A DNA stretch of 64,000 nucleotides. It comes from a virus. This document shows, in pieces, positions 12,822 through 56,374 of this stretch. Position 1 is the first letter of the stretch. Each line of letters opens with the position of its first letter. A model generated the notes under the pieces. The model searched no databases, was not told where the DNA came from, and saw only the letters and a list, made by a program, of their open reading frames with translations. The stretch is from positions 5,110-69,109 of IMG/VR virus record IMGVR_UViG_3300029319_000025; one strand, 5' to 3'. The position numbers and the translations under genes are program-made.

Positions 12822-15800
12822 ATGGCGCAACTAAAGAACATGTTTATCAAGGGTAAAATGAATTTAGACCTTGATGAAAGAATTATACCTAAAGGTGAAT
12901 ATAGAAAAGCACAAAACATACTTGTAACAAACAGTGAAGATTCTGACGTTGGAGCTATTGAAAACGTTAGAGGTAATGAGCTTGTTGGTGATACTTCATT
13001 AAATTTAGGTAATGGTATAGAAGATACTGGTGTTTGTATAGGTTCTTATGTTGACGTTTCTAAAGAAAGAATATTTTGGTTTATAACAAATTTTACATCT
13101 ACTCAACCAGAGTCTGGTATAAACAATGTTGATAGAGCTAGCAGTAGTCACAATGAAAACTGTAGAATAATAATGAGAGAAAAAACAGGATCTATTCATG
13201 TTTTAGTGGATGGTGTTTTTTTAAATCTTACAACTACTCACCATATAACAGGTGTAAATGTTGTAGGTAATTATCTATATTGGACAGACAATTATAATCA
13301 ACCTAGGTACATAGATATTGAGTTAGCTAAATCAGATGGTTCATATTATAACTGTGAAGATAAAATATCTGTTGCTAAAGTAGCTCCATTTATACCGCCA
13401 TTTCTACATAACTCAAATGAAGCTGGTTCTAACGCTAATTTAGGTGATGGTTATACTTTAAGAACAACTGATCCTACTTCTAGTTCTCAGCATACTAAGT
13501 CTGAGTACATGGAAGAAAAATTTATTAGGTTTGCTTATAGATACAAATACAGCGATAATACGTATTCTATTATATCACCATTTACACAAAACGTATTTAA
13601 ACCTTTAGCAAATGGTCAAATGAAGTTTGGTTCAACATCAAAAACAGGTAGTGGATCAGGTGATCTTGCTAACGAACCTGTAGTGAGTAATAGTATACAA
13701 TATATTTATACTCACAACGAAGTACCTATAATGAAAAACGCTTATGATAAGGTCGTAATGCGTATACCAATACCAACTTGTAGTGATAATGGAATTATTT
13801 CAGAACATAATACAGCTGGTAATCAAATAAGTAGCAACTCTTATCCTAATCTTTTAAAAATAGATAGTATTGAAATATTATTAAGAGAAGCTGGTACTAA
13901 TTCTATACAAATAGTTGATACTATAGACTTAATCAACACAGCTGGTTTAAATTTTGGAAGATATAAACAAAAAATAGCTACAAGTGGTGGTTTTTACTAC
14001 AGACAAACCGTAGAATATACTTATATAGCTAGAGACCCTTTTAAAGTTTTACCAGAAAAACAATTAATAAGAGTTGGTGACAATGCTCCTGTTAGAGCTA
14101 AAGCACAAGAAGTTGTAGGTAGTAGACTTGTTTATGGAAACATAACTTTAGGTTATGATTTACCTAGAGACGAAGACAACAAAAGAGGAATTAAGTTTTT
14201 TGTAACTAGTGGTCCTAAAGGTAAAAACGAACAAGGTTACACAGCTAATTCTATTGGTCATTATTTTCACAATCATGAGCAATATAAGTTTCATAATATA
14301 AAACAAAGAAGAACTTATCAAGTTGGTATTGTTTTAGTTGATAGATACGGAAGAACATCACCAGTAATACCATCTACTTACAAAACAACAAATTTAGGTG
14401 ACACTCATACTGTTGACGCGGTAACAGCTGATTTATCTGTAAATTTTAACAATGGAAATGCAGATGTTTATAGTTGGAGCGACACTGGGCTTGCTTATGG
14501 TCAAGCTTTATCTGTAGAGTTTCCAGACTCAAGAATAGTAGAAACAAATAGAACTTATAATAGAACAGATAGACCAAACGGTTGGTATTCTTGGAGAATA
14601 GTTGTAAAGCAAGTTGAACAAGATTATTACAATGTATACACAGAGCATCCCATGAACAACTGGACTGTTGAAGATGCTACAACAACTTCTTTTACTGGTT
14701 ATAGAGATCAACACATAAAAGGTAAGTTTAGTACTGCTCCAGGAAGCAAAAGTTGGTTTACATTATCAAATGACAATATTAATAAAGTTCCTAGATCTAT
14801 TAAAAACTTTAATGATGATGGTAGAGATTTTGGTGTAAATAGAGATGGTTTTGGTAGATTAATTAGTAGTTCAAACGAAGGTCTTTCTGGATCTGAAGAA
14901 AAATTATATCCTAAAGTTGTACAAAAAAGTAGTACAATAGCTGGTAGATATTTTGATTCTCAAATGGGTGATCCTCAACAAGATTATATAAATGTACTTA
15001 GTATTGGTTCTGCTATAGATCAAGGTTTGTCTAGTTTGTCAAACGCAAAAAGAGATGATGGTCAAAACAACGCAAACAGTGTTCAAGACTCTTTATACGA
15101 AGACAGACCTAGGCCTTATAGTTTTTTAGCTGATAATCACAAAAACCCTTTAGTTGCAGAAATACCAAACTTATATTTAGAACCAGTTGCTGTTAGTGGC
15201 GAGTTTAATGTAAATGGTAGTGATGTTATAAGAACAAGTAATAACAACCTTTCTAATATGCCTTTCGGTTATCCAAAAGGTAAAGATAGAGGATTAACTG
15301 TTTTTGAAACAAAGCCGTTTGAATCAAATATAGATATATATTATGAAACATCTAGTTGCGGTTTAGTTAGAGATTTAAATGAACATTGTGACTACGCAAA
15401 TCAAGGGCCTACAAATATAAGAATAACACCTACCTTTCAAGAAAGTAGTTTCACAGCTGGTTTAGCTGCTAATATATTAGAAGAAGCTAAATTTACATCT
15501 ACACCAGGCCAAAACCACGCTCAAGTAGGTGCATTAACTGCAACACCTTATAATGATGGAAGTAACCCAACAATAACAAGTTTTGAAATACTTGCTTGTA
15601 GTAATGGTTTTAATGATGGTAACGATTTATCTAAGTTTTCTATAGCTTTTGAAGATGATAAATCATTTGTTAAAATATCATCAGTTCAAAACACTCAAGC
15701 AGCTGCAGATAGCTTTAATCTATCAACAGGTGGCACTGTACTTAGGTTAGATTATAAAAATATAAGAAACTTAACAGCTACTTCAACAAACTTTGTTGAC

Positions 15801-16790
15801 GCAGCTCCAGATTTACCATCGGCTTTTGATACAGATGGTTTTTACAGAATTATTTCTTATCTAGGACATCATAGCTCAGCAAATAACAATGAAATGATAA
15901 AACAATGTATTGTTATTCAAGTAGCTAACAACCAAATAACAAACTTTTTTAGTTCTAATTTAAATAATACGCCTACTAATATAAACCAACAGTTTATGTT
16001 AAAAACAAATGATTTATTTGCTTTTCAAAACAATAACTCAAGAGACGTATTTAATATAACTTTAAGAGCAATACAAAGCAACCAAATAACTGGTACTGAA
16101 AATATAACTGTTACTGTAATAAACTCAAAACCAACAGCAAATACTCACGCTAGTATATTAATACCTAGCACTACAACAGCAGGTCCTGGTGGTGGTAAAA
16201 ACTTAGCAACACTAACAGCTGTTAATGGTTCTGCAGATCCTCTTAATAATACTTTTGGATTAACAAGTACTATAGGTGGAACAAATGCTAGTTCTTTTGA
16301 GCTAAATCAAAATCAATTTGCTCCAGGTAACTTTATTTTAGGCGCTAGTAGCACTTTTAATTTTAGTGCTTTATTTGGAACTCCTAACAACGGTGTTTAT
16401 CCTAACTCACCTTCAATAAATTGGCAAGTTGAAGATAATGGTGGTTTAAACTCTCTTTTAAACGGTAGTTTACCAACTACTATAAGTTTTATAGGTGTTC
16501 AAGTTGTAAACGTACAAGGTTTTCACTCTTCAGTAAGTGGTGCAGAAGCGTGTACTGGTGTTCAAACTCAAACTTTAACTAGCTACGCTGTAACAAAAGG
16601 ATCTGCTAATACAATGTACACACAAGCAGGTGGATTACAGGTTGGTAACAAAGTATACACTAATAATAATTTAACACAAACTCCTGGCGCTGGTTTTATA
16701 GCAATAGCAGTTGGATCAGGCCACAAGTCTTATCCAATAAATGCTTCAGGAGCAATAACAGGCGCGGGAACTACGTGCGTAATAGTATAA
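12822..16790 (+). CDS. Tail stabilisation/nozzle protein, N-terminal part (P22 gp10/muzzle-like) with C-terminal extension
   Basis: GKMNLDLDERIIPKGEYRKAQN start, LYWTDNYNQPRYI propeller motif, RFAYRYKY, YQVGIVLVDRYGR. Confidence 0.7.
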   Translation: MAQLKNMFIKGKMNLDLDERIIPKGEYRKAQNILVTNSEDSDVGAIENVRGNELVGDTSLNLGNGIEDTGVCIGSYVDVSKERIFWFITNFTSTQPESGINNVDRASSSHNENCRIIMREKTGSIHVLVDGVFLNLTTTHHITGVNVVGNYLYWTDNYNQPRYIDIELAKSDGSYYNCEDKISVAKVAPFIPPFLHNSNEAGSNANLGDGYTLRTTDPTSSSQHTKSEYMEEKFIRFAYRYKYSDNTYSIISPFTQNVFKPLANGQMKFGSTSKTGSGSGDLANEPVVSNSIQYIYTHNEVPIMKNAYDKVVMRIPIPTCSDNGIISEHNTAGNQISSNSYPNLLKIDSIEILLREAGTNSIQIVDTIDLINTAGLNFGRYKQKIATSGGFYYRQTVEYTYIARDPFKVLPEKQLIRVGDNAPVRAKAQEVVGSRLVYGNITLGYDLPRDEDNKRGIKFFVTSGPKGKNEQGYTANSIGHYFHNHEQYKFHNIKQRRTYQVGIVLVDRYGRTSPVIPSTYKTTNLGDTHTVDAVTADLSVNFNNGNADVYSWSDTGLAYGQALSVEFPDSRIVETNRTYNRTDRPNGWYSWRIVVKQVEQDYYNVYTEHPMNNWTVEDATTTSFTGYRDQHIKGKFSTAPGSKSWFTLSNDNINKVPRSIKNFNDDGRDFGVNRDGFGRLISSSNEGLSGSEEKLYPKVVQKSSTIAGRYFDSQMGDPQQDYINVLSIGSAIDQGLSSLSNAKRDDGQNNANSVQDSLYEDRPRPYSFLADNHKNPLVAEIPNLYLEPVAVSGEFNVNGSDVIRTSNNNLSNMPFGYPKGKDRGLTVFETKPFESNIDIYYETSSCGLVRDLNEHCDYANQGPTNIRITPTFQESSFTAGLAANILEEAKFTSTPGQNHAQVGALTATPYNDGSNPTITSFEILACSNGFNDGNDLSKFSIAFEDDKSFVKISSVQNTQAAADSFNLSTGGTVLRLDYKNIRNLTATSTNFVDAAPDLPSAFDTDGFYRIISYLGHHSSANNNEMIKQCIVIQVANNQITNFFSSNLNNTPTNINQQFMLKTNDLFAFQNNNSRDVFNITLRAIQSNQITGTENITVTVINSKPTANTHASILIPSTTTAGPGGGKNLATLTAVNGSADPLNNTFGLTSTIGGTNASSFELNQNQFAPGNFILGASSTFNFSALFGTPNNGVYPNSPSINWQVEDNGGLNSLLNGSLPTTISFIGVQVVNVQGFHSSVSGAEACTGVQTQTLTSYAVTKGSANTMYTQAGGLQVGNKVYTNNNLTQTPGAGFIAIAVGSGHKSYPINASGAITGAGTTCVIV

Positions 16791-21202: not shown

Positions 21203-24200
21203 ATGTACGAATTAAACGGCACTACATATTCGCTAGAAGAAATAGAAAAAGCCGCTGAGCAAAGTGGTATGACTTTACAAGAGTACATTGCTGCTAGCGG
21301 TATGGGTTTTAGCGAGGAAGGTAAAAAACAAAGAGAAAAAATTAAAATTGATGACTTTGACGCTGGGGCTGAGTTAAGTACTGCAGGTAGTAAATTTTGG
21401 GCTACTATGAATGATGTAGGCGCTAATCTATCTGAGTTTCCTGCTTTTATGAATAGACTTAAGTTTTCAATAACTAGAGGTTTTTTATCAGACGAAATGA
21501 AAGAAACTATATCTAAAATGGATCCAGTTCAACAAGATGCTATTGCTCAGAGTCTCGGTGGTGTATTTGCTAGTACATATGGTATGGATCCGATTGGGAT
21601 GTTAGCTAAACCAGGCCAAGAAAAAGCTGCAGAGCTAAGGAAAAACGCTGAAAAACTAAGAGAAAACTTAATAAAATACGATACCGATATATATGATACT
21701 ATATTCAAAGAAGGTAATATAGGCGAAGGTGTTACTAGATTAGTAACAGAAGCAATAGGTACAGCTCCTACTATACTACAAGCTATGATACCATATGTTG
21801 GTATACCTTCTATTGTAGCAGGTTCTGCTGCTGAAGCCTCAAGAGAAGCTGTTTATGAAGAAGGTAAAGACATAAACATAAAACAGCAACTTTATTCTGC
21901 AGGTATAGGTATGTCTGAAGGACTACTTGAGCTTGTTACTAAGAGAATAGGCATGTCAGCTTTTAAAAACATAATAGGTCAGCCAAAAGAAGTTGTAAAG
22001 AAAACATTACTTGAAACCGCTGGTGGTATAGTTAAAGCTGGTGGTGCTGAAGGTTTATCTGAAACTGGTACTTTAGCTTTAAACAAGTTTTTAGAATCTA
22101 AGTATTACAATGAAAAAGGCTTGTTTGAAATGGACGTTACAAAATGGGAAGAGTTTTGGGACGAAGCTGGTGATACATTTTTAATAGGTATGGCAACAGG
22201 TAAAGGTATGTCAGGTACTGGCGCCGCTGCTTCATATACAAGAGACGCTATTGGTGGTAGATCTGTAAGAAAATCTCTAGACAAAACAAATGTTAGCGAG
22301 GTTTCAAGTGCTTTTTTAAACGAAAATGTAAATGAAGATGTTATAGAGCTAGGTAGAAACCAGTTTGCATCAAGAGCATTAGATATAGAACTTAATAAAA
22401 AAGTAAAATTCAACGAAATATCACAAGAAAAAGCTGACGAAATAAAGAAAAACTTTAACAATGCTAGACAGTCTATACAGTTAGCTGATAATTTAAAAAT
22501 AGGTGATAAACTTATAAATGAAACAGTAGGATTATTACAAGAAAGAAACAACCTTGCAGCTAGAATTAAACAAGCTGGAGAGAATAAAGCTCTTGTAAAA
22601 ACAGATATTGAAAGACTAAATGAAATAGACAATAGATTAGGTGATATTAGTGTTCAAAACCAATTAGATATTAGAAATCAAAAAGTAACTGATATACTAA
22701 CTGGTATTGAAAGTATAAATATAGAAATAGCAAACAATCAACAAGAAGCAGATCAAATAGCTAAAGATAAAAATTTAGATAAAAAAGCTTCTTCAGAAAG
22801 AGGTTTTATATTACAAAACACAGAAACAGGTGAACAAACTATAGTAATAAATAATGATGTTGCTCTTGCTGATAAAGACGTTAATGTTGCCGCTCATGAA
22901 TTATTACATGGTGTTTTATTTCAAACTGTAAAAAATAGCCCTGAAACAGCTCAAAACCTTGCTAACGCTTTAAATGAAGAAATAAATAAAATAGATACAG
23001 AAGCGTTAAAAGATAGTGATTTTAAAACTAGACTAGATCAATATAAAAACGAGCCTGCAGAAATACAAGCCGAAGAAACTTTGACATTGTTTGCCGATGC
23101 TATAGCTAACGGTGAAATAAAATATAACGAAACTGTTTTTACTAAAATAGGTGATGTTATTAGAAGATTACTTCAACAAGCAGGTTTATCAAATATTAAG
23201 TTTAATAATTCGCAAGATGTATTTAACTTTATAAAAGATTATAATAATAGCATAGTAAAAGGCGAGTTAACAAAAGCACAAAAACAACTTACAGAAAAAG
23301 CTGCAGAAGGTGGTTTAGTGTCAACACCTACAAATCAACAGGTTAACATTAAAAAATCATTAGCTACTAAAGTTGATAGTAAAAAAATAGAAGCTGATTT
23401 TAAATCTAGACTAGATCAATTTACTGGTACAGCTGAACAAAGAAAATACACAAGCGATGCAGAGTTTAAAAAATCAAATGATTTTGCTCAAGCAGCTTTA
23501 GCATTAGAAGAAGATCCAGCTGTACTTAAAAAAATAGAAAAAGAATTTTTAAGGTATAACGTAAATCCTACAACCCAAAATATAACAGACGCTTCAAGAA
23601 TATTATCAGATAAATTTATGACTACTTTTAATGTAGAAAAAAATAGTTTATTTGGTTGGGCTTTAGGTAAAACACCTGTATTAACAAAAGCTGTAAATAC
23701 TGTTATAGAAAAAGAAACTAGTAGACCTGATGCTGGCGCTGCTTCAATAGATCAAACTTTTGGTGAAGATCAAAGAGGTTTTGATGTTGTTGACGATACA
23801 GATATTAATGATATTATACAAAATAATATTGATGGCGACAAGTTAAGACCGAGATCAAAGGTTGGTCAAAAAACCATGCTAAATGGTGAAAAGTTATTTG
23901 ATGATAACATAGTAAAAGCTATGAAAGCAAAGGCTTTAGAGGTTTTAGGTAAAGACTATGATATAACTAGTGATGAGTTTATAAAATTTGTTACAGATGA
24001 GTTTAACACAACTATAAGGCCAGTATTACAAAAGAAAATAGGTAACGAAGCAGCTTATAGAAAATTTATAGAAGAAAACCACGAAACAGATGGTGATCCT
24101 TTTCAAGAAGGTAATATACCTTTAGCTGACATTGTTCAGATGGAAAAGATGGAAGATAACAAGGTATTTACTGAAGAAATACAAAGAAACTTAAAACCAA

Positions 24201-27200
24201 AAGCAGTAGACGCTGCTGTTAAAGCTAACAAGTTACCAAAAGGTACTAATAGATTATCTGGTCCTACGCTTTATAAATACGGTAAACCAACAGTAGACGA
24301 TAAAGTAAACTTTATATATGGTGTTAAAGGATCGAAAAGAGGTACCAGAAAAGATAGAACATTTTTAAATCTAGGTTTAAGAGCTATGTTTGACATGCTT
24401 GTAACTCAAGCAACGGAAACTAAAGTACCACAAAAACAAGTTACTAAATTAGCTGCAAAAGTAAATGTACCACAAAATATTAAATTTGCTAAATCTGTTA
24501 CAAAACAAGTGCAAGAGTACGGTGCTAGAACTAGAGCTCGTAATGAGTTTCAAACTATAAATGGTAAGAAACTAGCTAAAACAGATCCTGCTGTAAAAAA
24601 CAAAGCAAAAGAAGAAATAATACCTTCTCTTAAAAAACTATCAAAAGAAACAAGAGTGCTAATGCTTTATACTATGCAGGGTACTGGTAAAGATAAAATA
24701 GATGGTACGCTTGGTAGGTCTGGTATGATATTTCCAAACAAGCAAGCGGCCATGGACGCTTTAGGACTTACACAGCAAGATATTAAAAACACTGATATAA
24801 AAGACGCTCAGAACTATGCTGGTAAATCTGTATTAAGTACAAGTAAACTACCTATAGATTTAATTAAAAACTTATTAACAGACGGTAATTTACACTTAAC
24901 AATAGCTAGAGAAAATTTAGCTAAAGAAACTAAGTTAAAACAAATAGTAACTGAATTAGCTAATTTATCTGCTAAAAACCCTGATATAGCTGCTGGATTA
25001 AATCATATAATAGGTTTACAGTCAGATTATCAAGGACATTTTATTAGAAAGCTTGTAACGTTTCAGTCTTTTACAGATCCTAAGTTATTAAGTAAAGGAA
25101 TACACGATGAGCATTACTCTAAATCATTAAGAACAACTAGATTTGTACAGTCTATAATAGATAAAGCAGCTACAGAAGGTGAAGATTATTTAAGTCAAGA
25201 ATTAAACGATGATTTAGAAAACTTAGTACAAGGACAAGCTAGAGGTATTGTATCTAAAATAGAAGGTAATAAATTTGATGAGAAAAAAGGTATAGGCGAA
25301 CAAAACCACATAGCTCAAACACCGTTTGAAGAGGTTTATAAAAAAGTACAAAACCCTAAAAAACATTACATACTTCCTTATACTAGATTAAATCCTACTA
25401 GTGAAGTTAAAACATTACAAGAGGTAGCTGATAATAATTTTAAAAGAGTTAAAAACTTTAAATACCCTAACCAATTAGTAAAACTAAGTAAAAGCAGTAA
25501 TTCAGATAAAATACTAAACGATTTAAATAATTACGATAAAGCATTGCGTAATGCCAAAGATCTAAAAGCACCTAAAAAAGGTATTAGTGTATTTGATTTT
25601 GATGATACTTTAGCTACAACAAAAAGTAAGATTATTGTTACTATGGCCGATGGTAAAGTAAAAGAAATAACACCTGCTGAATTTGCAAAGCTACATAGTA
25701 AGTTAGAAAGTGAAGGAGCAACATTTGATTTTAGTCAATTTAACGAAGTTATAGATGGTAAACCAGGGCCTTTAGCTGCTAAGCTTAAAAAAGCAATAGA
25801 TAAGTTTGGTAACAAAGATGTATTTGTTTTAACAGCTAGACCAGCTGCTTCAGAACAAGCTATATATGAGTTTTTAAAAGGTATAGGTTTAGAAATACCA
25901 TTAGAAAATATAACAGGTTTAGAAAACGGTACACCTCAAGCAAAAGCAAACTGGGTTGTTGATAAAGCAGCACAAGGTTATAATGATTTTTACTTTACTG
26001 ATGATGCTTATAAAAATGTAAAAGCAGTGCAAGACGCTCTTGAAGTATTAGATGTTAAATCTAAATCAAGAGTAGCTTATGTTGATAGAGTATCAAAATT
26101 AGATAAAGATTTTAACGATATACTAGAAGCTAAAACAGGTATTGCTGCAGAAAAAGAATATAGTCCAGCTAAAGCTAAAGTAGTGGGTGCTAAAAAAGGT
26201 AGATTTACATTTTTTATACCACCATCAGCAGAAGATTTTGTAGGTTTATTATATAATACACTATCAAAAGGTAAGCTTGGTGATAATCAAATGGCTTGGT
26301 ATAAAAAGAACTTACTAGATCCCTTCGCAAGAGCTAACGCAAATATATCAAGAGAGCGTATAGCTTTGATGAATGATTATAAAGCTTTAAAAAATCAACT
26401 AAACATTGTTCCTAAAAACTTAAAAAAGACAATACCTGGTGACACATATACTAGAGAACAAGCTGTTAGAGTTTATATATGGGATAAACAAGGTATGACT
26501 GTTCCAGGGTTAAGTAAAGCAGATTTAAAAGATTTAGTTAAATACGTTAATGGTGATGCTGCTTTAAAAACATTTGGTGATCAGTTGATAAATATAAATA
26601 AAGATGATGGTTATGCAGCTCCTACTTCTGGTTGGCTAGCAGGAACAACTACAACGGATTTATTACAAAACATTGGAACAACAAAAAGAGCTAAACATTT
26701 AGCTGAATGGCAGCAAAACGTAGATATTATATTTTCTGAAAAGAATTTAAATAAAATGGAAGCTGCCTTTGGTAAAGCACATAGAATAGCTTTAGAAGGT
26801 ATATTAAAACGTATGAAAACTGGTAGAAACAGAAGTTTCCAAACAGATTCATTAACGGGTAAAGTTACAGATTGGTTGACAAATAGTATTGGTACTATTA
26901 TGTTCTTTAACACAAGATCAGCATTACTACAAACAATATCAGCTGTTAACTTTATTAACTTTAAAGATAATAATATATTTAAAGCTGGTAAAGCATATGC
27001 TAATCAAAAACAATATTGGTCAGACTTTATGACTTTAATGAACTCAGACTTTTTAGTTGATAGACGTAGAGGATTAAGAATAAATGTAAACGAAGCTGAT
27101 ATAGCTAACATGGCACAAGAAAGTGGACCAAGAGGTGTTATAAGTAAAATGCTTGAAATAGGGTTTTTACCAACACAAATAGCTGATAGTTTTGCTATCG

Positions 27201-28084
27201 CAAGTGGTGGCGCTACAATGTATAGGAATAGAATTAATACGTATAAAAAACAAGGATTTAGTCAAAAAGAAGCTGAAAAGAAAGCATTTAATGATTTTAG
27301 AGAAATAGCTGAAGAATCTCAACAGTCTAGTAGACCTGATAGAATATCCGCTCAACAAGCAGGACCATTAGGTAGAATAATACTAGCGTTTGGTAATACA
27401 CCTATGCAGTACGCTAGGTTAATTAAAAAAGCCGCTTCTGATCTTAAAAACAGAAGAGGTGACTGGAAAACAAATGTTTCTAAAATTATATACTATGGTG
27501 CTGTACAAAATTTAATATTCAATGCTTTACAGCAAGCTATATTTGCTATAGCGTTTGGCGATTCAGATGAAGATGAAGAAGAAAAAAAATATTTAAGTAT
27601 AGCTAATGGTATGGCAGACTCGTTATTAAGGGGTGTTGGTATTGCGGGCGCTTTTGTGTCTGTCGGTAAAAACGCTATAATAAGAATAATGAATGAGTCA
27701 GAAAAACCTAATCCTAAATATGAAAAAATAGGTTATGAGTTAACTAGAATATCACCACCAATATCATCAAAGTTATCAAGATTAAATCAAGCCGCTAGAT
27801 CTTTACAATGGGATAAAGAAGAAATGATGCAAAAAGGTTTATCATATGATAATCCAGCTTGGTTAGCAGGTGCAAACGTAACATCTGCTATAACAAATGT
27901 ACCTGTTGATAGATTAGTCAAGAAAACAACTAATGTAATTGATGCAACAAGTCAAGATCTTGAAATGTGGGAAAGACTAGCTTTATTAGGTGGTTGGCAA
28001 AAATGGGAACTAGATATGACTGATGATAGAAAAACTAAAAAATCTAAAAAGAAAAAATCATCAGGGCCTAAAAGAAGATTTTAA
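21203..28084 (+). CDS. Giant internal/ejected polyvalent protein with zincin HExxH and HAD-phosphatase domains
   Basis: AAHELLHG (22895-22909) with downstream AEE; HAD motifs VFDFDDTL (~25595), VLTAR, FTDD. Confidence 0.75.
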   Translation: MYELNGTTYSLEEIEKAAEQSGMTLQEYIAASGMGFSEEGKKQREKIKIDDFDAGAELSTAGSKFWATMNDVGANLSEFPAFMNRLKFSITRGFLSDEMKETISKMDPVQQDAIAQSLGGVFASTYGMDPIGMLAKPGQEKAAELRKNAEKLRENLIKYDTDIYDTIFKEGNIGEGVTRLVTEAIGTAPTILQAMIPYVGIPSIVAGSAAEASREAVYEEGKDINIKQQLYSAGIGMSEGLLELVTKRIGMSAFKNIIGQPKEVVKKTLLETAGGIVKAGGAEGLSETGTLALNKFLESKYYNEKGLFEMDVTKWEEFWDEAGDTFLIGMATGKGMSGTGAAASYTRDAIGGRSVRKSLDKTNVSEVSSAFLNENVNEDVIELGRNQFASRALDIELNKKVKFNEISQEKADEIKKNFNNARQSIQLADNLKIGDKLINETVGLLQERNNLAARIKQAGENKALVKTDIERLNEIDNRLGDISVQNQLDIRNQKVTDILTGIESINIEIANNQQEADQIAKDKNLDKKASSERGFILQNTETGEQTIVINNDVALADKDVNVAAHELLHGVLFQTVKNSPETAQNLANALNEEINKIDTEALKDSDFKTRLDQYKNEPAEIQAEETLTLFADAIANGEIKYNETVFTKIGDVIRRLLQQAGLSNIKFNNSQDVFNFIKDYNNSIVKGELTKAQKQLTEKAAEGGLVSTPTNQQVNIKKSLATKVDSKKIEADFKSRLDQFTGTAEQRKYTSDAEFKKSNDFAQAALALEEDPAVLKKIEKEFLRYNVNPTTQNITDASRILSDKFMTTFNVEKNSLFGWALGKTPVLTKAVNTVIEKETSRPDAGAASIDQTFGEDQRGFDVVDDTDINDIIQNNIDGDKLRPRSKVGQKTMLNGEKLFDDNIVKAMKAKALEVLGKDYDITSDEFIKFVTDEFNTTIRPVLQKKIGNEAAYRKFIEENHETDGDPFQEGNIPLADIVQMEKMEDNKVFTEEIQRNLKPKAVDAAVKANKLPKGTNRLSGPTLYKYGKPTVDDKVNFIYGVKGSKRGTRKDRTFLNLGLRAMFDMLVTQATETKVPQKQVTKLAAKVNVPQNIKFAKSVTKQVQEYGARTRARNEFQTINGKKLAKTDPAVKNKAKEEIIPSLKKLSKETRVLMLYTMQGTGKDKIDGTLGRSGMIFPNKQAAMDALGLTQQDIKNTDIKDAQNYAGKSVLSTSKLPIDLIKNLLTDGNLHLTIARENLAKETKLKQIVTELANLSAKNPDIAAGLNHIIGLQSDYQGHFIRKLVTFQSFTDPKLLSKGIHDEHYSKSLRTTRFVQSIIDKAATEGEDYLSQELNDDLENLVQGQARGIVSKIEGNKFDEKKGIGEQNHIAQTPFEEVYKKVQNPKKHYILPYTRLNPTSEVKTLQEVADNNFKRVKNFKYPNQLVKLSKSSNSDKILNDLNNYDKALRNAKDLKAPKKGISVFDFDDTLATTKSKIIVTMADGKVKEITPAEFAKLHSKLESEGATFDFSQFNEVIDGKPGPLAAKLKKAIDKFGNKDVFVLTARPAASEQAIYEFLKGIGLEIPLENITGLENGTPQAKANWVVDKAAQGYNDFYFTDDAYKNVKAVQDALEVLDVKSKSRVAYVDRVSKLDKDFNDILEAKTGIAAEKEYSPAKAKVVGAKKGRFTFFIPPSAEDFVGLLYNTLSKGKLGDNQMAWYKKNLLDPFARANANISRERIALMNDYKALKNQLNIVPKNLKKTIPGDTYTREQAVRVYIWDKQGMTVPGLSKADLKDLVKYVNGDAALKTFGDQLININKDDGYAAPTSGWLAGTTTTDLLQNIGTTKRAKHLAEWQQNVDIIFSEKNLNKMEAAFGKAHRIALEGILKRMKTGRNRSFQTDSLTGKVTDWLTNSIGTIMFFNTRSALLQTISAVNFINFKDNNIFKAGKAYANQKQYWSDFMTLMNSDFLVDRRRGLRINVNEADIANMAQESGPRGVISKMLEIGFLPTQIADSFAIASGGATMYRNRINTYKKQGFSQKEAEKKAFNDFREIAEESQQSSRPDRISAQQAGPLGRIILAFGNTPMQYARLIKKAASDLKNRRGDWKTNVSKIIYYGAVQNLIFNALQQAIFAIAFGDSDEDEEEKKYLSIANGMADSLLRGVGIAGAFVSVGKNAIIRIMNESEKPNPKYEKIGYELTRISPPISSKLSRLNQAARSLQWDKEEMMQKGLSYDNPAWLAGANVTSAITNVPVDRLVKKTTNVIDATSQDLEMWERLALLGGWQKWELDMTDDRKTKKSKKKKSSGPKRRF

Positions 28085-49886: not shown

Positions 49887-50147
49887 TTAATCTAGTAATT
49901 TCATGTAGCCTTTCACATCAGTGGCTGCGAACCAGTCAAGACCTTTATGGAAGTCATTAATAACTTGTTCATCGGTGTTACCCATTTCAAAAGTCATTTG
50001 TGCACCCATTATAAAGTCATACATAGATAACTGTGCGGCTGTTAGTTCATACTCCTCTCCACTGAAAGGATTTGTAACGGTGTCGCCGTGTGTATAGCAT
50101 ACACCGCTAAACCATTTTGGTAGTGTGTTTTTGTCTTTTTTACTCAT
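49887..50147 (-). CDS. Hypothetical protein
   Basis: ORF track. Confidence 0.7.
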   Translation of the reverse strand: MSKKDKNTLPKWFSGVCYTHGDTVTNPFSGEEYELTAAQLSMYDFIMGAQMTFEMGNTDEQVINDFHKGLDWFAATDVKGYMKLLD

Positions 50148-50370
50148 CGCTTAAAAATTTACTACCATACATAATATCATGTGCGGTAAGTTGATATGTG
50201 TACAAGTCGGAATAAGAACATAGATCGCTAACATCTTGTATATGTAAGTCTGACCATATGTTATTAGCCATTAACTTGTACGATAGTCTTTGTGCTGTGC
50301 TATATTTTTTAGCATTAGCTTTCAGAGCTTTTTTAATCTCTGGTTTTAGTAATTCGTATAGGTTTTTCAT
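50140..50370 (-). CDS. Hypothetical protein
   Basis: ORF track; downstream of promoter copy 2. Confidence 0.7.
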   Translation of the reverse strand: MKNLYELLKPEIKKALKANAKKYSTAQRLSYKLMANNIWSDLHIQDVSDLCSYSDLYTYQLTAHDIMYGSKFLSDE

Positions 50371-50385
50371 ATTTATTATTTAATT

Positions 50386-50419
50386 ATATTATCCAACTTG
50401 TTTCGTATTTATGTTGTAT
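50386..50419 (-). promoter_or_regulatory. Early promoter-like repeat, copy 2
   Basis: ATACAACATAAATACGA-N9-GATAATAT. Confidence 0.75.
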
Positions 50420-50422
50420 TAG

Positions 50423-50527
50423 TGGACGTGGCAGGATTCGAACCTGCGTTAGTAGTCACGGTTTTCCATCCGATGGGAGTTACCTATGTTGTTATCTCCA
50501 TATCACTACTCTTACCATTTCACGCCC
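50423..50527 (-). ncRNA. Miniature tmRNA-like RNA (tRNA-like domain only, Ala identity)
   Basis: Acceptor GGGCGTG/CACGTCC with G3:U70, A73; stemless D-loop AAATGGTAAG; helix AGTAGT/ACTACT; AAC linker; T-arm GCAGG-TTCGAAT-CCTGC; 48-nt insert. Confidence 0.7.
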
Positions 50528-50531
50528 ATAA

Positions 50532-50626
50532 GGCAGCAGTTGCGGACTGGTAGTTACCTAGTATTGTCATTTATCCGCTCTTTCTGTTTCGGGTATGGAC
50601 CCTAACGTGACCAGTATGCCGCCGCC
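50532..50626 (-). ncRNA. Putative structured small RNA B
   Basis: Closing stem GGCGGCGG/CTGCTGCC, second stem ACTGGT/ACCAGT, inner hairpin GGGT-CCAT-ACCC; GC-rich and non-coding. Confidence 0.5.
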
Positions 50627-50630
50627 AAAT

Positions 50631-50702
50631 CGCCTCACATAATACACTTCCGTACGCTCGCTTATACCCGTCGGTAGTCGGCACCACATAATGTTTTTGG
50701 CG
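50631..50702 (-). ncRNA. Putative structured small RNA A
   Basis: CGCC/GGCG, ACATtATG/TATtATGT, CCG/CGG stems and TACC-GACG-GGTA hairpin. Confidence 0.4.
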
Positions 50703-50716
50703 TTGTAAATGTAAAT

Positions 50717-51017: not shown

Positions 51018-51230
51018 TTATCTTAGGCACGTGCCATAACCTCTGCGAGCGGTTAGCTTACGTATTCTAGCTGCTTGGGCCTTTGGCATGATTTGAATAG
51101 TATTGCCGGTTTTGTGGTATGTGATTGCCACACAGCCATAAGCTTCCGTACTGCTACAGTTAACACATTCAGTATAACCGAGTGCTAACCGCTGTGGAGG
51201 TATTATATTATTGCATTTACATTTTTTCAT
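51018..51230 (-). CDS. DksA/TraR-type C4 zinc-finger protein
   Basis: C.C...IP..RL......C..C. Confidence 0.6.
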   Translation of the reverse strand: MKKCKCNNIIPPQRLALGYTECVNCSSTEAYGCVAITYHKTGNTIQIMPKAQAARIRKLTARRGYGTCLR

Positions 51231-52405: not shown

Positions 52406-52409
52406 GTAG

Positions 52410-52472
<63 letters not shown>

Positions 52473-52482
<10 letters not shown>

Positions 52483-53338: not shown

Positions 53339-53379
53339 TTGCCATGAGTGGAATCGAACCACTATTAACCATTATGGCA
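53339..53379 (-). ncRNA. Anticodon-less tRNA-like minihelix (acceptor + T-arm)
   Basis: TGCCATA-ATGGTTAAT-AGTGG-TTCGATT-CCACT-CATGGCA-A, followed by CTA. Confidence 0.6.
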
Positions 53380-54808: not shown

Positions 54809-56374
54809 ATGGAATTTAATCAACCAAGCCAAATTGTAAAAGATTTGACTTTTGGCAATAAAGCCAATAGTAAGATCATGAAAGGTGTAGAACAACTAGC
54901 AGATGCTGTAAAATCTACACTAGGAGCTTCAGGAAAGTGCGTAATATACGAGGATGCCCTCGGAAAACCGGTGATTACAAAAGACGGAGTAACAGTTGCT
55001 GAATCTGTTGTCTTATATGATCCGGTTGAAAATATTGGCGCAACTTTAATAAAAGAAGCTGCAAAAAACACAGTGAAAGAAGCAGGTGACGGTACCACTA
55101 CGGCTACTGTCCTTGCTTACTCACTATTAAACGAAATGCAACAATATCAAGGAAATGATAGTGTAAGAGAGATAAATGCAGGTATAGACACATGTTTAAA
55201 TAAGATAACAGAGTATTTAGATGATATTAAAGTTGATGTATCTGGTAAAATGTTAGAACATGTTAGTACTATTTCTTGTAATAATGACGATATACTTGGT
55301 AAAATTATCTCAGAGGCTTATAGCAAAGTCGGTAAAGATAGTGTTGTATTGCTGGAAGAGTCGCAAACAGAAAAAACGTATGCGGATGTAGTGGACGGAG
55401 TACAACTTAAATGTCCAATAACATCAAACTATTTAATAACAGATAAAGCTAGAGAAGTTGCAGAGCTAGATAATCCATATATATTAATAGCTTTAACACC
55501 AATACAAAGTATAAGAAGTATACAACCAATACTAGAACATGTTATTAAAAAGAAAAGATCGCTATTAGTTATAGGTAGTCTAGAAGAACAACCTAAATCA
55601 GCACTATTAGCAAACAAAGTAAAAGGTAATATAAAAGTAAATATTATTGATTTACCTGGTTTTGGACCTACAAAAGAAGATACTGTTGAAGATCTAGCTA
55701 TTGTAACAGGTGCAAAAATAATAAATGAAAGTCTTGGAGATGACTTTGATCTTATAGATACTAGTTTTTTAGGCGAAGCTGTTAAATCGGTAACTGATAA
55801 TAAAAACACTGTATTAACTATTAACAAGTCAAATAAAGACTATACTGAAAGGATAAAAATAGTAAAAGATGCTATTAAAAAACAAAAAGATCCTTTTATG
55901 AAAAAGAAACTACAAGAACGATTAGCTATATTATCTGGTAATGTAGGTATTGTTAGAGTAGGTGCGAACTCACAAGTTGAGTTAAAAGAAAAGAAAGACA
56001 GAGTTGAAGATGCTATTTATGCTACTAAAGCCGCTTTGCAGGAAGGCATTGTACCAGGCGGTGGTATAGCTTTACTAAATGCCGCAACAAGCATTAAAGA
56101 AAATAGTGATGGAGAACTTATATTGACAAAATCAATAATAGCTCCATTTAAAACTATATTAAGCAATGCTGGTATAGATGCTGTACTACCAAAAAAAGAT
56201 GGTTATGGTATTGACGTTGTTACTGGTAAAGAAGTTGATATGATTAAAAACGGTATTATTGATCCGGTTTTGGTTACAAAAACGGCGCTCAAAAACGCAG
56301 TGAGCGTGGCAAAAACGATAATGTCTGCAGATTGTATAATAAGTAATAGAAGAGTGGAAAATGCAAGCAGTTAA
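54809..56374 (+). CDS. groEL: Chaperonin GroEL (phage-encoded)
   Basis: ITKDGVTVA, AGDGTTTATVLA, EKKDRVEDA, GIVPGGG, GIIDP; no GGM tail. Confidence 0.95.
   Translation: MEFNQPSQIVKDLTFGNKANSKIMKGVEQLADAVKSTLGASGKCVIYEDALGKPVITKDGVTVAESVVLYDPVENIGATLIKEAAKNTVKEAGDGTTTATVLAYSLLNEMQQYQGNDSVREINAGIDTCLNKITEYLDDIKVDVSGKMLEHVSTISCNNDDILGKIISEAYSKVGKDSVVLLEESQTEKTYADVVDGVQLKCPITSNYLITDKAREVAELDNPYILIALTPIQSIRSIQPILEHVIKKKRSLLVIGSLEEQPKSALLANKVKGNIKVNIIDLPGFGPTKEDTVEDLAIVTGAKIINESLGDDFDLIDTSFLGEAVKSVTDNKNTVLTINKSNKDYTERIKIVKDAIKKQKDPFMKKKLQERLAILSGNVGIVRVGANSQVELKEKKDRVEDAIYATKAALQEGIVPGGGIALLNAATSIKENSDGELILTKSIIAPFKTILSNAGIDAVLPKKDGYGIDVVTGKEVDMIKNGIIDPVLVTKTALKNAVSVAKTIMSADCIISNRRVENASS

What the first reader, a model, noticed from the sequence alone, without database searches (positions are those of the whole stretch)
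50423..50527. Miniature tmRNA-like RNA: alanyl-tRNA mimic without an mRNA-like domain
Seen (- strand, 105 nt): 7-bp acceptor GGGCGTG/CACGTCC with a G3:U70 wobble and A discriminator, a stemless D-loop with GG, a 6-bp helix AGTAGT/ACTACT, a 3-nt AAC linker and a canonical T-arm. Established: G3:U70 is the AlaRS identity element. A stemless D-loop, helix 2a and a short GAC-type linker together define the SmpB-binding tRNA-like domain of tmRNA, and bacterial tmRNAs are about 350 nt. Here only 48 nt lie between the helix strands, with no pseudoknot ring and at most a 5-codon frame (ATG GAG ATA ACA ACA TAG). Inference: an early phage RNA that could titrate SmpB/EF-Tu, block host trans-translation, or rescue ribosomes without adding a proteolysis tag.
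Basis: partly seen in the sequence, partly recalled or inferred. Interest (0 to 1): 0.88.

Follow-up and report, generated by a model that had tools for sequence, protein, structure and literature searches.

The report
Phage mini-tmRNA lacking a tag template
A marine phage encodes a 105-base RNA that copies only the tRNA-like end of the bacterial ribosome-rescue RNA (tmRNA), a kind of molecule so far reported from one other phage, and relatives of it are common in uncultured marine phages.

Summary
Window 50423-50527 (- strand) holds a 7-bp acceptor stem with G3:U70 and discriminator A. It also has a stemless 10-nt D-loop with GG, a 6-bp helix closing 48 nt, an AAC linker and a standard T-arm.

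It is not chance. Relatives of 47-185 nt were found in more than 119 stretches of viral contigs and on 8 metagenome-bin contigs. Flanking proteins are only 35-70% identical, yet all three helices covary. G3:U70 holds in 89 of 91 distinct sequences, A73 in 91 of 91 and A8 in 86 of 91. The insert is variable and carries no conserved reading frame.

The layout matches the published "TLD only" tmRNA of mycobacteriophage DS6A, which I located at JN698994 28478-28560. A Balneola bin's tmRNA has the identical acceptor stem.

Best reading: a tag-less tmRNA mimic, alanylated and able to bind host SmpB, that disturbs host trans-translation. Charging, SmpB binding and expression are not shown. Rfam scores do not discriminate it from tRNAs.

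Verdict: a new, large family of a known but rare kind. Interest is moderate.

The parts
50423..50527 (-). TLD-only tmRNA-like RNA (105 nt before CCA addition). Sub-parts: acceptor stem 50521-50527 with 50424-50430 (G3:U70); D-loop 50511-50520; helix 2 50505-50510 with 50451-50456; variable insert 50457-50504; AAC linker 50448-50450; T-arm 50431-50447; discriminator A 50423.
   Evidence: for the sequence, fold and model scores. Family covariation. Family statistics.
50420..50422 (-). 3' trailer CTA in place of an encoded CCA. CTA or CAA follows nearly all family members, the other tRNA-like elements of these phages, the DS6A element and the Balneola tmRNA gene.
50532..50626 (-). Conserved structured module ('module U') directly 5' of the RNA. 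It has an outer helix, an inner helix and an apparent pseudoknot pairing, with compensatory changes seen by eye. Function is unknown, and it may share a precursor with the RNA.
   Evidence: blastn gives 80-98% identity over about 60 nt in many loci. It is present in 22 of 92 distinct upstream contexts.
50635..50693 (-). Hairpin module of about 55 nt. In other phages the same module sits inside the helix-2 loop of the family RNA (L038, L130) or beside other RNA genes (L082, L095, L121, L122).
50140..50370 (-). Conserved 76-aa gene of unknown function immediately downstream. It served as the syntenic anchor.
   Evidence: No Pfam or PHROG match.
51018..51230 (-). Conserved 70-aa four-cysteine (zinc-ribbon-like) gene upstream. 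It served as a second syntenic anchor.
   Evidence: No Pfam or PHROG match.

Best explanation
The RNA is a phage-encoded, tag-less miniature of tmRNA: the tRNA-like domain (TLD) closed by helix 2 and a variable hairpin domain.

Proposed mechanism, all steps inferred:
1. It is cut out of a - strand transcript of the small-gene region by RNase P at G1 and by 3' trimming.
2. It receives CCA from the host enzyme.
3. It is charged with alanine by host AlaRS through G3:U70 and A73.
4. It binds host SmpB, and then EF-Tu, as the tmRNA TLD does.

With no resume codon or tag frame it cannot complete trans-translation. It would therefore compete with host tmRNA for SmpB and for stalled ribosomes. The outcome would be either blocked tagging or the addition of a single alanine without a degradation tag.

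Shown here: the anatomy, its conservation and covariation, the alanine-identity elements, and the likeness to tmRNA TLDs and to the DS6A element. Inferred: processing, charging, SmpB binding and the effect on the host.
For: - **Anatomy.** Acceptor with G3:U70 and A73, stemless D-loop with GG, helix 2, AAC linker and T-arm.
- **Distribution.** Family members lie at a syntenic slot in 30 of 50 loci anchored on the 76-aa gene and 22 of 80 anchored on the zinc-ribbon gene, at E <= 1e-6. 70 matches came from the 75 of those stretches that I searched.
- **Covariation.** It is seen in all three helices. Pairs 4:69 and 6:67 change on both sides while 3:70 stays G:U in 46 of 48 sequences. Pooled, G:U holds in 89 of 91, A73 in 91 of 91, and AAC or GAC precedes the T-stem in 87 of 91. 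A8 holds in 86 of 91.
- **Fold of the middle part.** Folded alone, it gives a 9-12-nt single-stranded D-loop, one enclosing helix and a 3-4-nt linker in 38 of 48 sequences.
- **No tRNA or tmRNA call.** ARAGORN calls none in 88 of 91.
- **tmRNA-type D-loops in the same slot.** L032, L034 and L040 carry a D-loop that nearly matches those of Bacteroidetes tmRNAs from bins G002 and G003. A graded series leads from these to the window's form.
- **Identical ends in a bona fide tmRNA.** A Balneola-bin tmRNA (ARAGORN call with a tag peptide) has the identical acceptor stem, discriminator and CTA trailer.
- **Same architecture in DS6A.** The element at JN698994 28478-28560 has the same layout, scores 43.2 bits with RF00023 and also has a CTA trailer.
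[quoted passage not shown] A truncated tmRNA with only the TLD is discussed as a substrate for peptidyl transfer in vitro, a reaction that kirromycin blocked (PMC3895274, one passage).
- **Not an attachment site.** The genome, estimated 100% complete, has no tyrosine integrase.
Against: - RF00023 scores the window RNA at 31.2 bits, below the gathering score of 47. Ordinary matches of about 76 nt in five bacterial bins (tRNA-sized; not checked with a tRNA caller) reach 27-40 bits, so this score says nothing. The tRNA model scores 26.9, nearly as well. The mt-tmRNA model finds nothing.
- At the 5' junction the window's variant has GAG where tmRNAs, DS6A and several relatives have GAC.
- The phage encodes no SmpB. 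The host is only inferred to be Bacteroidota.
- The same phages carry other tRNA-like RNAs and 41-47-nt minihelices without alanine identity but with the same trailer. That pattern would also fit a generic tRNA-like role such as transcript processing.
- Exceptions to G3:U70 exist: A3:U70 in L028 (first copy), L042 and L043, and U3:A70 in L036.
- Statistics on 3:70 are biased. The patterns fix U70, and model R1 was built from sequences with one acceptor stem. The sequences are also related by descent.
- No discrete transcript, CCA addition, charging or SmpB binding was shown.
Confidence: 0.6

Rival explanations
1. It is a generic tRNA-like element, either a degenerate tRNA-Ala or one of several tRNA-shaped signals in this region. 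On this reading its job is to be recognised by RNase P, 3' processing enzymes and the CCA enzyme, so that the polycistronic transcript is cut or stabilised. SmpB and trans-translation play no part.
For: - The tRNA model aligns it end to end at 26.9 bits.
- The window holds two more tRNA-shaped elements on the same strand: tRNA-Met at 52409-52482 and a minihelix at 53340-53378.
- Related phages carry several classes of tRNA-like RNAs and minihelices with different acceptor stems, all followed by the same CTA-type trailer.
- A Chloroflexota tRNA-Ala has the identical acceptor stem.
- No terminator was found nearby, and the next gene starts 52 nt downstream.
Against: - A pure processing signal would not need G3:U70 kept in 89 of 91 sequences while neighbouring pairs covary. 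Nor would it need A73 in 91 of 91, or a conserved stemless D-loop with A8 and GG.
- No D-stem or anticodon loop exists in any member.
- D-loops of tmRNA type occur in the same slot.
Confidence: 0.22
2. It is an alanine carrier for a reaction off the ribosome. The charged mini-RNA would deliver alanine to a transferase that depends on aminoacyl-tRNA, from the phage or the host, while escaping use in translation.
For: Alanine identity elements are conserved and there is no anticodon. Neighbouring conserved small proteins have no known family and so could hide such an activity.
Against: None of the 10 neighbouring proteins scanned matches an aminoacyl-tRNA-dependent transferase family. The D-loop and linker likeness to tmRNA is not explained.
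Confidence: 0.05
3. It is a decoy or spare part against a host defence that attacks the acceptor and T-arm end of tRNAs or tmRNA. It would soak up a nuclease or a modifying toxin.
For: There are many tRNA-shaped RNAs per phage, with extreme conservation of the acceptor and T-arm at the nucleotide level.
Against: Nothing here points to a specific defence system. A decoy for acceptor-end attack would not need G3:U70 in particular.
Confidence: 0.05
4. It is a phage attachment site carrying part of the host tmRNA or tRNA gene, not an RNA gene.
For: The 3' 30 nt match the 3' end of the Balneola-bin tmRNA at 27 of 30 positions. tmRNA genes are common integration sites (PMC11915505, abstract passage).
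Against: The genome is estimated complete and has no tyrosine integrase. The 5' acceptor strand, D-loop and a covarying helix 2 are also conserved, which an attachment site does not need.
Confidence: 0.02

Closest known systems
'TLD only' tmRNA of Mycobacterium phage DS6A (tmRNA Website entry; Hudson et al. 2014, PMC4131195; Nawrocki et al. 2025, PMC11915505; Mao et al. 2009, not held)
   Same: Both are phage-encoded. Both have a 7-bp acceptor stem with G3:U70 and A73, a stemless D-loop with GG, one helix closing a short hairpin domain, a 3-nt linker ending in AC, a T-arm, no tag frame and a CTA trailer instead of CCA. I located the DS6A element at JN698994 28478-28560 (83 nt matched; 80 nt to A73 by eye).
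   Different: The phage lineage and host are unrelated: an actinobacterial temperate phage with an integrase, against marine Bacteroidota-type podovirus-like phages without one. Here the RNA is a large, diversified family of 47-185 nt, whose helix-2 loop accepts mobile RNA modules. The window's variant has GAG rather than GAC at the 5' junction. DS6A scores higher with RF00023 (43.2 against 31.2 bits).
Standard one-piece bacterial tmRNA (Rfam RF00023), for example the Balneola sp. bin tmRNA in L145
   Same: The TLD features are shared. The Balneola tmRNA has the identical acceptor stem, discriminator and CTA trailer, and a 27/30 match over linker, T-arm and acceptor 3' strand. D-loops of L032-type family members nearly equal those of Bacteroidetes tmRNAs.
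   Different: There is no resume codon, no conserved tag frame and no ring of four pseudoknots. The RNA is 105 nt against 308-400 nt. It falls below the Rfam gathering score.
CDS-less organellar tmRNAs (jakobid and oomycete mitochondria, Rfam RF02544; Mallomonadaceae plastids of about 65 bp)
   Same: They are reduced to roughly the TLD with no tag reading frame, and may be unable to complete trans-translation (PMC11915505, passage).
   Different: Mitochondrial genes are usually circularly permuted. RF02544 finds nothing in this phage. Organellar forms co-occur with a dedicated SmpB, whereas the phage has none.
tRNA-Ala and the alanine minihelix (AlaRS substrates defined by G3:U70; recalled from the literature, not from a call)
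   Same: They share the acceptor stem with G3:U70 and A73, and the T-arm. A Chloroflexota tRNA-Ala has the identical acceptor stem. The 47-nt family member L018 is essentially a minihelix plus a loop.
   Different: There is no D-stem and no anticodon arm. A8 replaces the near-universal U8 of tRNAs in 86 of 91 sequences. It falls below the tRNA gathering score, and ARAGORN makes no call.

Membership tests
tmRNA (standard, RF00023) | TLD acceptor stem of 7 bp with G3:U70 and discriminator A | tested here: met
   Present in the window. G:U in 89 of 91 and A73 in 91 of 91 family sequences. Neighbouring pairs covary.
tmRNA (standard, RF00023) | D-loop without a D-stem, carrying GG, followed by helix 2a; short linker ending in AC before the T-arm | tested here: met
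   The layout is recovered in 38 of 48 free folds of the middle part. GG starts at position 12 in 76 of 91. AAC or GAC in 87 of 91. Helix 2 shows changes on both sides at all 4 modelled pairs. The window has GAG where tmRNAs have GAC.
tmRNA (standard, RF00023) | mRNA-like domain: resume codon and conserved tag reading frame ending in a stop | tested here: not met
   The insert is 48 nt here and spans 23-139 nt in relatives, with unrelated sequences. ARAGORN finds no tmRNA in the window and none in 88 of 91 members. Its single tmRNA call (L130) puts the tag in a mobile hairpin module whose frame is not kept in L038.
tmRNA (standard, RF00023) | Ring of pseudoknots (PK1-PK4) | tested here: not met
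   The insert is too short and folds as simple hairpins. No pseudoknot predictor was available. A possibly pseudoknotted module lies outside the RNA, 5' of G1.
tmRNA (standard, RF00023) | Score at or above Rfam's gathering threshold | tested here: not met
   31.2 bits against 47. Matches of about 76 nt (tRNA-sized) in bacterial bins reach 27-40 bits with the same model.
tmRNA (standard, RF00023) | Alanylation by AlaRS; binding of SmpB and EF-Tu | not testable with these tools
   No tool folds or docks RNA with protein. This needs bench work.
TLD-only (CDS-less) tmRNA, as in phage DS6A | Complete TLD closed by helix 2 plus a short hairpin, no tag frame, standard (not permuted) order | tested here: met
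   Compared side by side with the DS6A element and with the family layout.
TLD-only (CDS-less) tmRNA, as in phage DS6A | Closer to tmRNA TLDs than to tRNAs | tested here: inconclusive
   In favour: A8, no D-stem, the AC-ending linker, tmRNA-type D-loops in L032, L034 and L040, and identical ends in the Balneola tmRNA. Against: model scores do not separate the two, and a tRNA-Ala shares the acceptor stem.
tRNA (RF00005) | Cloverleaf with D-arm and anticodon arm; gathering score 29 | tested here: not met
   26.9 bits, with the D-stem unpaired and 48 nt inserted at the anticodon loop. ARAGORN makes no call.
mt-tmRNA (RF02544) | Match to the model | tested here: not met
   No match at E <= 10 in the phage genome.

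The most novel reading that the evidence does not exclude
The TLD RNA is one half of a new kind of split phage device aimed at ribosome rescue. On this reading the alanine-charged, SmpB-binding mini-tmRNA works together with the conserved, apparently pseudoknotted module that abuts its 5' end in the window and in about a quarter of the upstream contexts examined. That module, or one of the mobile modules found inside the helix-2 loop of some relatives, would supply in cis or in trans a function that the lost mRNA-like domain once had. Phages of marine Bacteroidota would then re-programme stalled host ribosomes rather than merely block them.
Probability: 0.08. Interest if true: 0.85.

Novelty: new member of a known kind. 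Interest (0 to 1): 0.55.

Why it matters
Tag-less, TLD-only tmRNAs have been curiosities: one phage sequence (DS6A), a few organellar genes, and one indirect experiment. This work turns the kind into a family, with at least 119 viral-contig stretches and 91 distinct sequences examined. There is enough variation to show selection on the alanine identity pair and on the TLD layout.

That selection argues that charging matters, not only SmpB binding. It also gives a ready set of natural variants of 47-185 nt for testing what the minimal requirements are for AlaRS, SmpB and ribosome entry.

The family also suggests that interference with host ribosome rescue is a common strategy of abundant marine phages. 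That can be tested in laboratory Bacteroidota or in E. coli.

If the RNA turns out not to bind SmpB, it would still be an unusually well-conserved phage tRNA mimic that needs a function.

Tried and rejected
**Searches that found nothing**
- Nucleotide searches of the locus against the 50,697 phage records found nothing in either near or distant mode. The zinc-ribbon neighbour also has no match there.
- Three phage records picked from the protein hits were searched with R1: MW202828, Flavobacterium phage elemoB_14-3B and Cellulophaga phage phi10:1. None has the RNA. The best hit, 29.6 bits, is a different 96-nt tRNA-like sequence.
- Rfam at gathering thresholds finds only the tRNA-Met. RF02544 finds nothing.

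**Readings rejected**
- I first read RF00023's 31.2 bits as support. I dropped that after the same model gave 27-40 bits to tRNA-sized (~76-nt) matches in bacterial bins.
- A phage SmpB is absent.
- The attachment-site reading is rejected: no integrase, and the 5' half is conserved.
- A tag frame in the insert or in the upstream module: I read frames by eye on the outputs. No frame or stop is kept across variants.
- The promoter and terminator scan gave 8 promoter-like sites against a mean of 5.1 in shuffles, and 0 terminators. It is not informative, and Bacteroidota promoters are not covered.

**Sequencing runs**
- 6 RNA-library runs held small shares, and I laid 4 of them (X15-X18), all as contigs.
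- Contigs at least 90% alike cover parts of 50371-50705 in all four runs, from three studies.
- One 110-nt contig (X16, depth 45.2) matches both ends of the RNA with 33 other letters in place of the middle, so it carries a relative with a shorter middle.
- Contigs in X15 and X18 carry the central 58 nt in another sequence context.
- Contigs cannot show ends, strand or level, and DNA may be present in such libraries. I therefore count this as no more than a weak hint of expression of relatives, and not as evidence about this RNA's ends.

**Possible trace of ancestry**
- A 13-nt word and a 12-nt word are shared with the Balneola tmRNA. They are adjacent there and about 75 nt apart upstream of the window RNA.
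- I noted this as a possible trace of ancestry. I could not take it further, and the local alignment finds only the 3' TLD.

**Tools and papers not available**
- Complex prediction, structure prediction and the large protein searches were not used. They do not take RNA, and the question did not turn on a protein.
- Mao et al. 2009 is not held. I know it only through passages in PMC4131195 and PMC11915505.
The tables of PMC10690425 (candidate structured RNAs from IMG/VR) and of PMC11915505 (tmRNA database) may already list relatives of this RNA.

**'Not in print'** rests on searches only.
Full report
**What is there**

It has a 7-bp acceptor stem whose third pair is G:U, and a discriminator A. 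A 10-nt loop with GG follows the stem and has no D-stem. A 6-bp helix closes 48 nt, and a 3-nt AAC linker leads into a 5-bp T-stem with a standard 7-nt T-loop. CCA is not encoded; CTA follows.

The free fold recovers acceptor, helix and T-arm at -29.9 kcal/mol (z = -2.18; 3 of 200 shuffles as good). ARAGORN and Rfam at gathering thresholds see only a tRNA-Met at 52409-52482. With relaxed thresholds the tRNA model aligns the RNA end to end at 26.9 bits, below its cut-off of 29. In that alignment the D-stem is unpaired and 48 nt are inserted at the anticodon loop.

**The genome**

The window is part of a 69,109-bp virus record estimated 100% complete. The record encodes a terminase, primase/helicase, ribonucleotide reductase, a GroEL-like chaperonin and a DNA ligase. 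Its terminase and primase are closest to podoviruses and other phages of Flavobacterium, Cellulophaga and Tenacibaculum, at 42-44% identity, with 63.5% to one uncultured record. A Bacteroidota host is therefore likely but not shown.

The RNA lies in a 346-nt gap between small - strand genes of unknown function. There is one copy per genome.

**It is a conserved RNA gene**

- A pattern made of the two acceptor strands and the T-loop found six other viral contigs. Their ends were identical, their inserts were different, and the helix closing the insert changed on both strands.
- The flanking proteins are only 35-70% identical between these contigs.
- I then fetched loci through the two conserved neighbours, without reference to the RNA, and searched them with a covariance model.
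- At E <= 1e-6 the RNA is present in 30 of 50 loci anchored on the downstream 76-aa gene and in 22 of 80 anchored on the upstream zinc-ribbon gene. It is always on the gene strand, and in the 50 loci anchored on the 76-aa gene it lies just upstream of that gene.
I searched 75 of those stretches and 70 matches came back.
- A scan of bacterial and archaeal genomes found 11 stretches. Eight are the same RNA on short or phage-like contigs of metagenome bins. One is a tRNA-Ala, one a tRNA-Ile and one a tmRNA.

**Covariation and conserved features**

On 48 distinct sequences:
- 97.7% of 745 pair cells are standard pairs, against 34.5-49.6% with slid partners.
- The covariation score is 0.392 against at most 0.037, and no shuffle of 500 reaches it.
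- All four modelled pairs of helix 2 change on both sides. Two pairs do so in the T-stem and two in the acceptor stem.
- Pair 3:70 is G:U in 46 sequences and A:U in 2.

Pooled over 91 distinct sequences:
- G3:U70 is kept in 89 and A73 in 91.
- AAC or GAC precedes the T-stem in 87.
- A is at position 8 in 86, and GG starts at position 12 in 76.
- Lengths run from 47 to 185 nt, with a median of 93.

The middle part, folded alone, gives a 9-12-nt single-stranded loop, one enclosing helix and a 3-4-nt linker in 38 of 48 sequences.

Three caveats apply. The alignments are fitted to my model. The patterns fix U70, and the model was trained on one acceptor stem. The sequences are related by descent.

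A structure-only finder run on the protein-anchored loci showed the exceptions (the L028 copy also). A3:U70 occurs in L028 (first of two tandem copies), L042 and L043. U3:A70 occurs in L036.

**tmRNA-like or merely tRNA-like?**

Model scores do not decide. RF00023 gives 31.2 bits against a cut-off of 47. The same model gives 27-40 bits to matches of about 76 nt in five bacterial bins (tRNA-sized; I did not run a tRNA caller on them), whose true tmRNAs score 81.9-174.2. RF02544 finds nothing.

The argument therefore rests on features.
1. No member has a D-stem or an anticodon loop.
2. Position 8 is A, as in three of the four bacterial tmRNAs read here. That tRNAs normally have U8 is recalled knowledge.
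3. The linker ends in AC, as in the four bacterial tmRNAs I read. In the one tRNA-Ala read here (L144) the three nucleotides before the T-stem are GTC.
4. At the same syntenic slot, L032, L034 and L040 carry a D-loop nearly identical to that of two Bacteroidetes-bin tmRNAs. A graded series leads from these through the L013, L103 and L130 types to the window's form, which has GAG where the others have GAC.
5. The tmRNA of a Balneola bin, called by ARAGORN with an 18-residue tag, has the identical acceptor stem, discriminator and CTA trailer. It matches 27 of 30 positions across linker, T-arm and acceptor 3' strand.

Against this, a Chloroflexota tRNA-Ala has the same acceptor stem.

**No mRNA-like part inside**

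Inserts are unrelated in sequence and span 23-139 nt. ARAGORN calls neither tRNA nor tmRNA in 88 of 91 members. Its one tmRNA call (L130) places the tag in a mobile hairpin module whose frame is not kept in L038.

**Precedent**

The tmRNA database papers list a 'TLD only' tmRNA in mycobacteriophage DS6A. They state that a similar molecule, chargeable or not, strongly inhibits tmRNA in E. coli, perhaps by titrating SmpB. They also list CDS-less tmRNAs in mitochondria and in two plastids (passages of PMC4131195 and PMC11915505). The primary paper, Mao et al. 2009, is not held.

I located the DS6A element at JN698994 28478-28560, where it scores 43.2 bits with RF00023. Its layout is the same as here, down to the CTA trailer.

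[quoted passage not shown] Full-length tmRNAs occur in about 2% of sequenced phages (PMC9004378, passages). One was noted in a Cellulophaga phage (PMC8776804, passage).

My five literature searches found no description of this marine family.

**Mechanism**

The most likely mechanism is that of a tag-less tmRNA mimic. Processing by RNase P and 3' trimming would be followed by CCA addition, alanylation through G3:U70 and A73, binding of host SmpB and EF-Tu, and competition with host tmRNA.

The strict retention of the alanine identity pair, while its neighbours covary, suggests that charging is selected. That points beyond simple SmpB titration to entry into stalled ribosomes. All these steps are inferred.

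The phage has no SmpB. It also has no tyrosine integrase, which together with the conserved 5' half rules out an attachment site.

The main rival is a generic tRNA-shaped processing or stability element. These phages carry several other tRNA-like RNAs and minihelices with other acceptor stems and the same trailer.

**Surroundings**

The RNA sits in a modular RNA island.
- **Upstream module.** Directly 5' of G1, at about 50532-50626, lies a module that is 80-98% identical over about 60 nt in many loci. It is present in 22 of 92 distinct upstream contexts. It has two nested helices and an apparent pseudoknot pairing, each with compensatory changes seen by eye.
- **Hairpin module.** Further upstream, at about 50635-50693, is a hairpin module of about 55 nt. 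In L038 and L130 the same module sits inside the helix-2 loop of the family RNA, and elsewhere it lies beside other RNA genes.
- **Reading frames.** I found no reading frame kept across variants of either module.

**Expression**

Only contigs of RNA libraries were available. Contigs at least 90% alike cover parts of 50371-50705 in four runs of three studies. They include a 110-nt contig carrying a shorter-insert relative. This is a weak hint at best.

**Verdict**

The functional claims are plausible and have a published precedent, but they are untested. This is a new and large family of a known, rare kind.

Noticed in passing
window 50532-50626 (-): A conserved structured RNA module directly abuts the 5' end of the TLD RNA. 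It is 80-98% identical over about 60 nt in many related phages. It shows two nested helices and an apparent pseudoknot pairing with compensatory changes, and no Rfam match. It is present in 22 of 92 distinct upstream contexts.
   Followed up: partly
window 50635-50693 (-); also L038 2352-2402, L130 2752-2802, L082, L095, L121, L122: A hairpin module of about 55 nt appears to be mobile. It stands alone in the window, lies inside the helix-2 loop of the family RNA in L038 and L130, and lies next to a tRNA-Met in L121. A spurious 40-aa ORF (50567-50689) runs through it.
   Followed up: partly
window about 50560-50685 (-) and L145 about 1899-1925: A 13-nt word and a 12-nt word of the window's upstream region occur side by side in the Balneola-bin tmRNA just after its tag stop codon. 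In the window they are about 75 nt apart. This may be a trace of common ancestry or chance.
   Followed up: partly
window 53340-53378 (-): A 39-nt tRNA-like minihelix: a 6-7-bp stem, a 9-nt loop with GG and a T-arm, followed by a CTA-type trailer. It has no alanine identity. The same class occurs in L026, L028 and L137.
   Followed up: partly
L029, L033, L040-L043, L146, L226 and others: A further class of tRNA-like RNAs of 93-189 nt in the same phages. It has its own acceptor stem, also with G3:U70 but with discriminator C, and often lies just upstream of the TLD RNA.
   Followed up: no
window 50452-50509: The central 58 nt of the window RNA's insert occur in RNA-library contigs of runs X15 and X18 (depths up to 84-145) flanked by other sequence. 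The insert itself may therefore be a shuffled module.
   Followed up: no
window 54809-56374 (+): A phage-encoded GroEL-like chaperonin of 521 aa (PHROG 5725, E = 8.4e-131).
   Followed up: no
window 21203-28084 (+): A very large ORF of 2293 aa, next to one of 1322 aa at 12822-16790. Neither was examined.
   Followed up: no
window 52409-52482 (-): A tRNA-Met (CAT), the only standard tRNA in the window. Related phages carry similar ones in the same region, several with a mismatched first pair.
   Followed up: no
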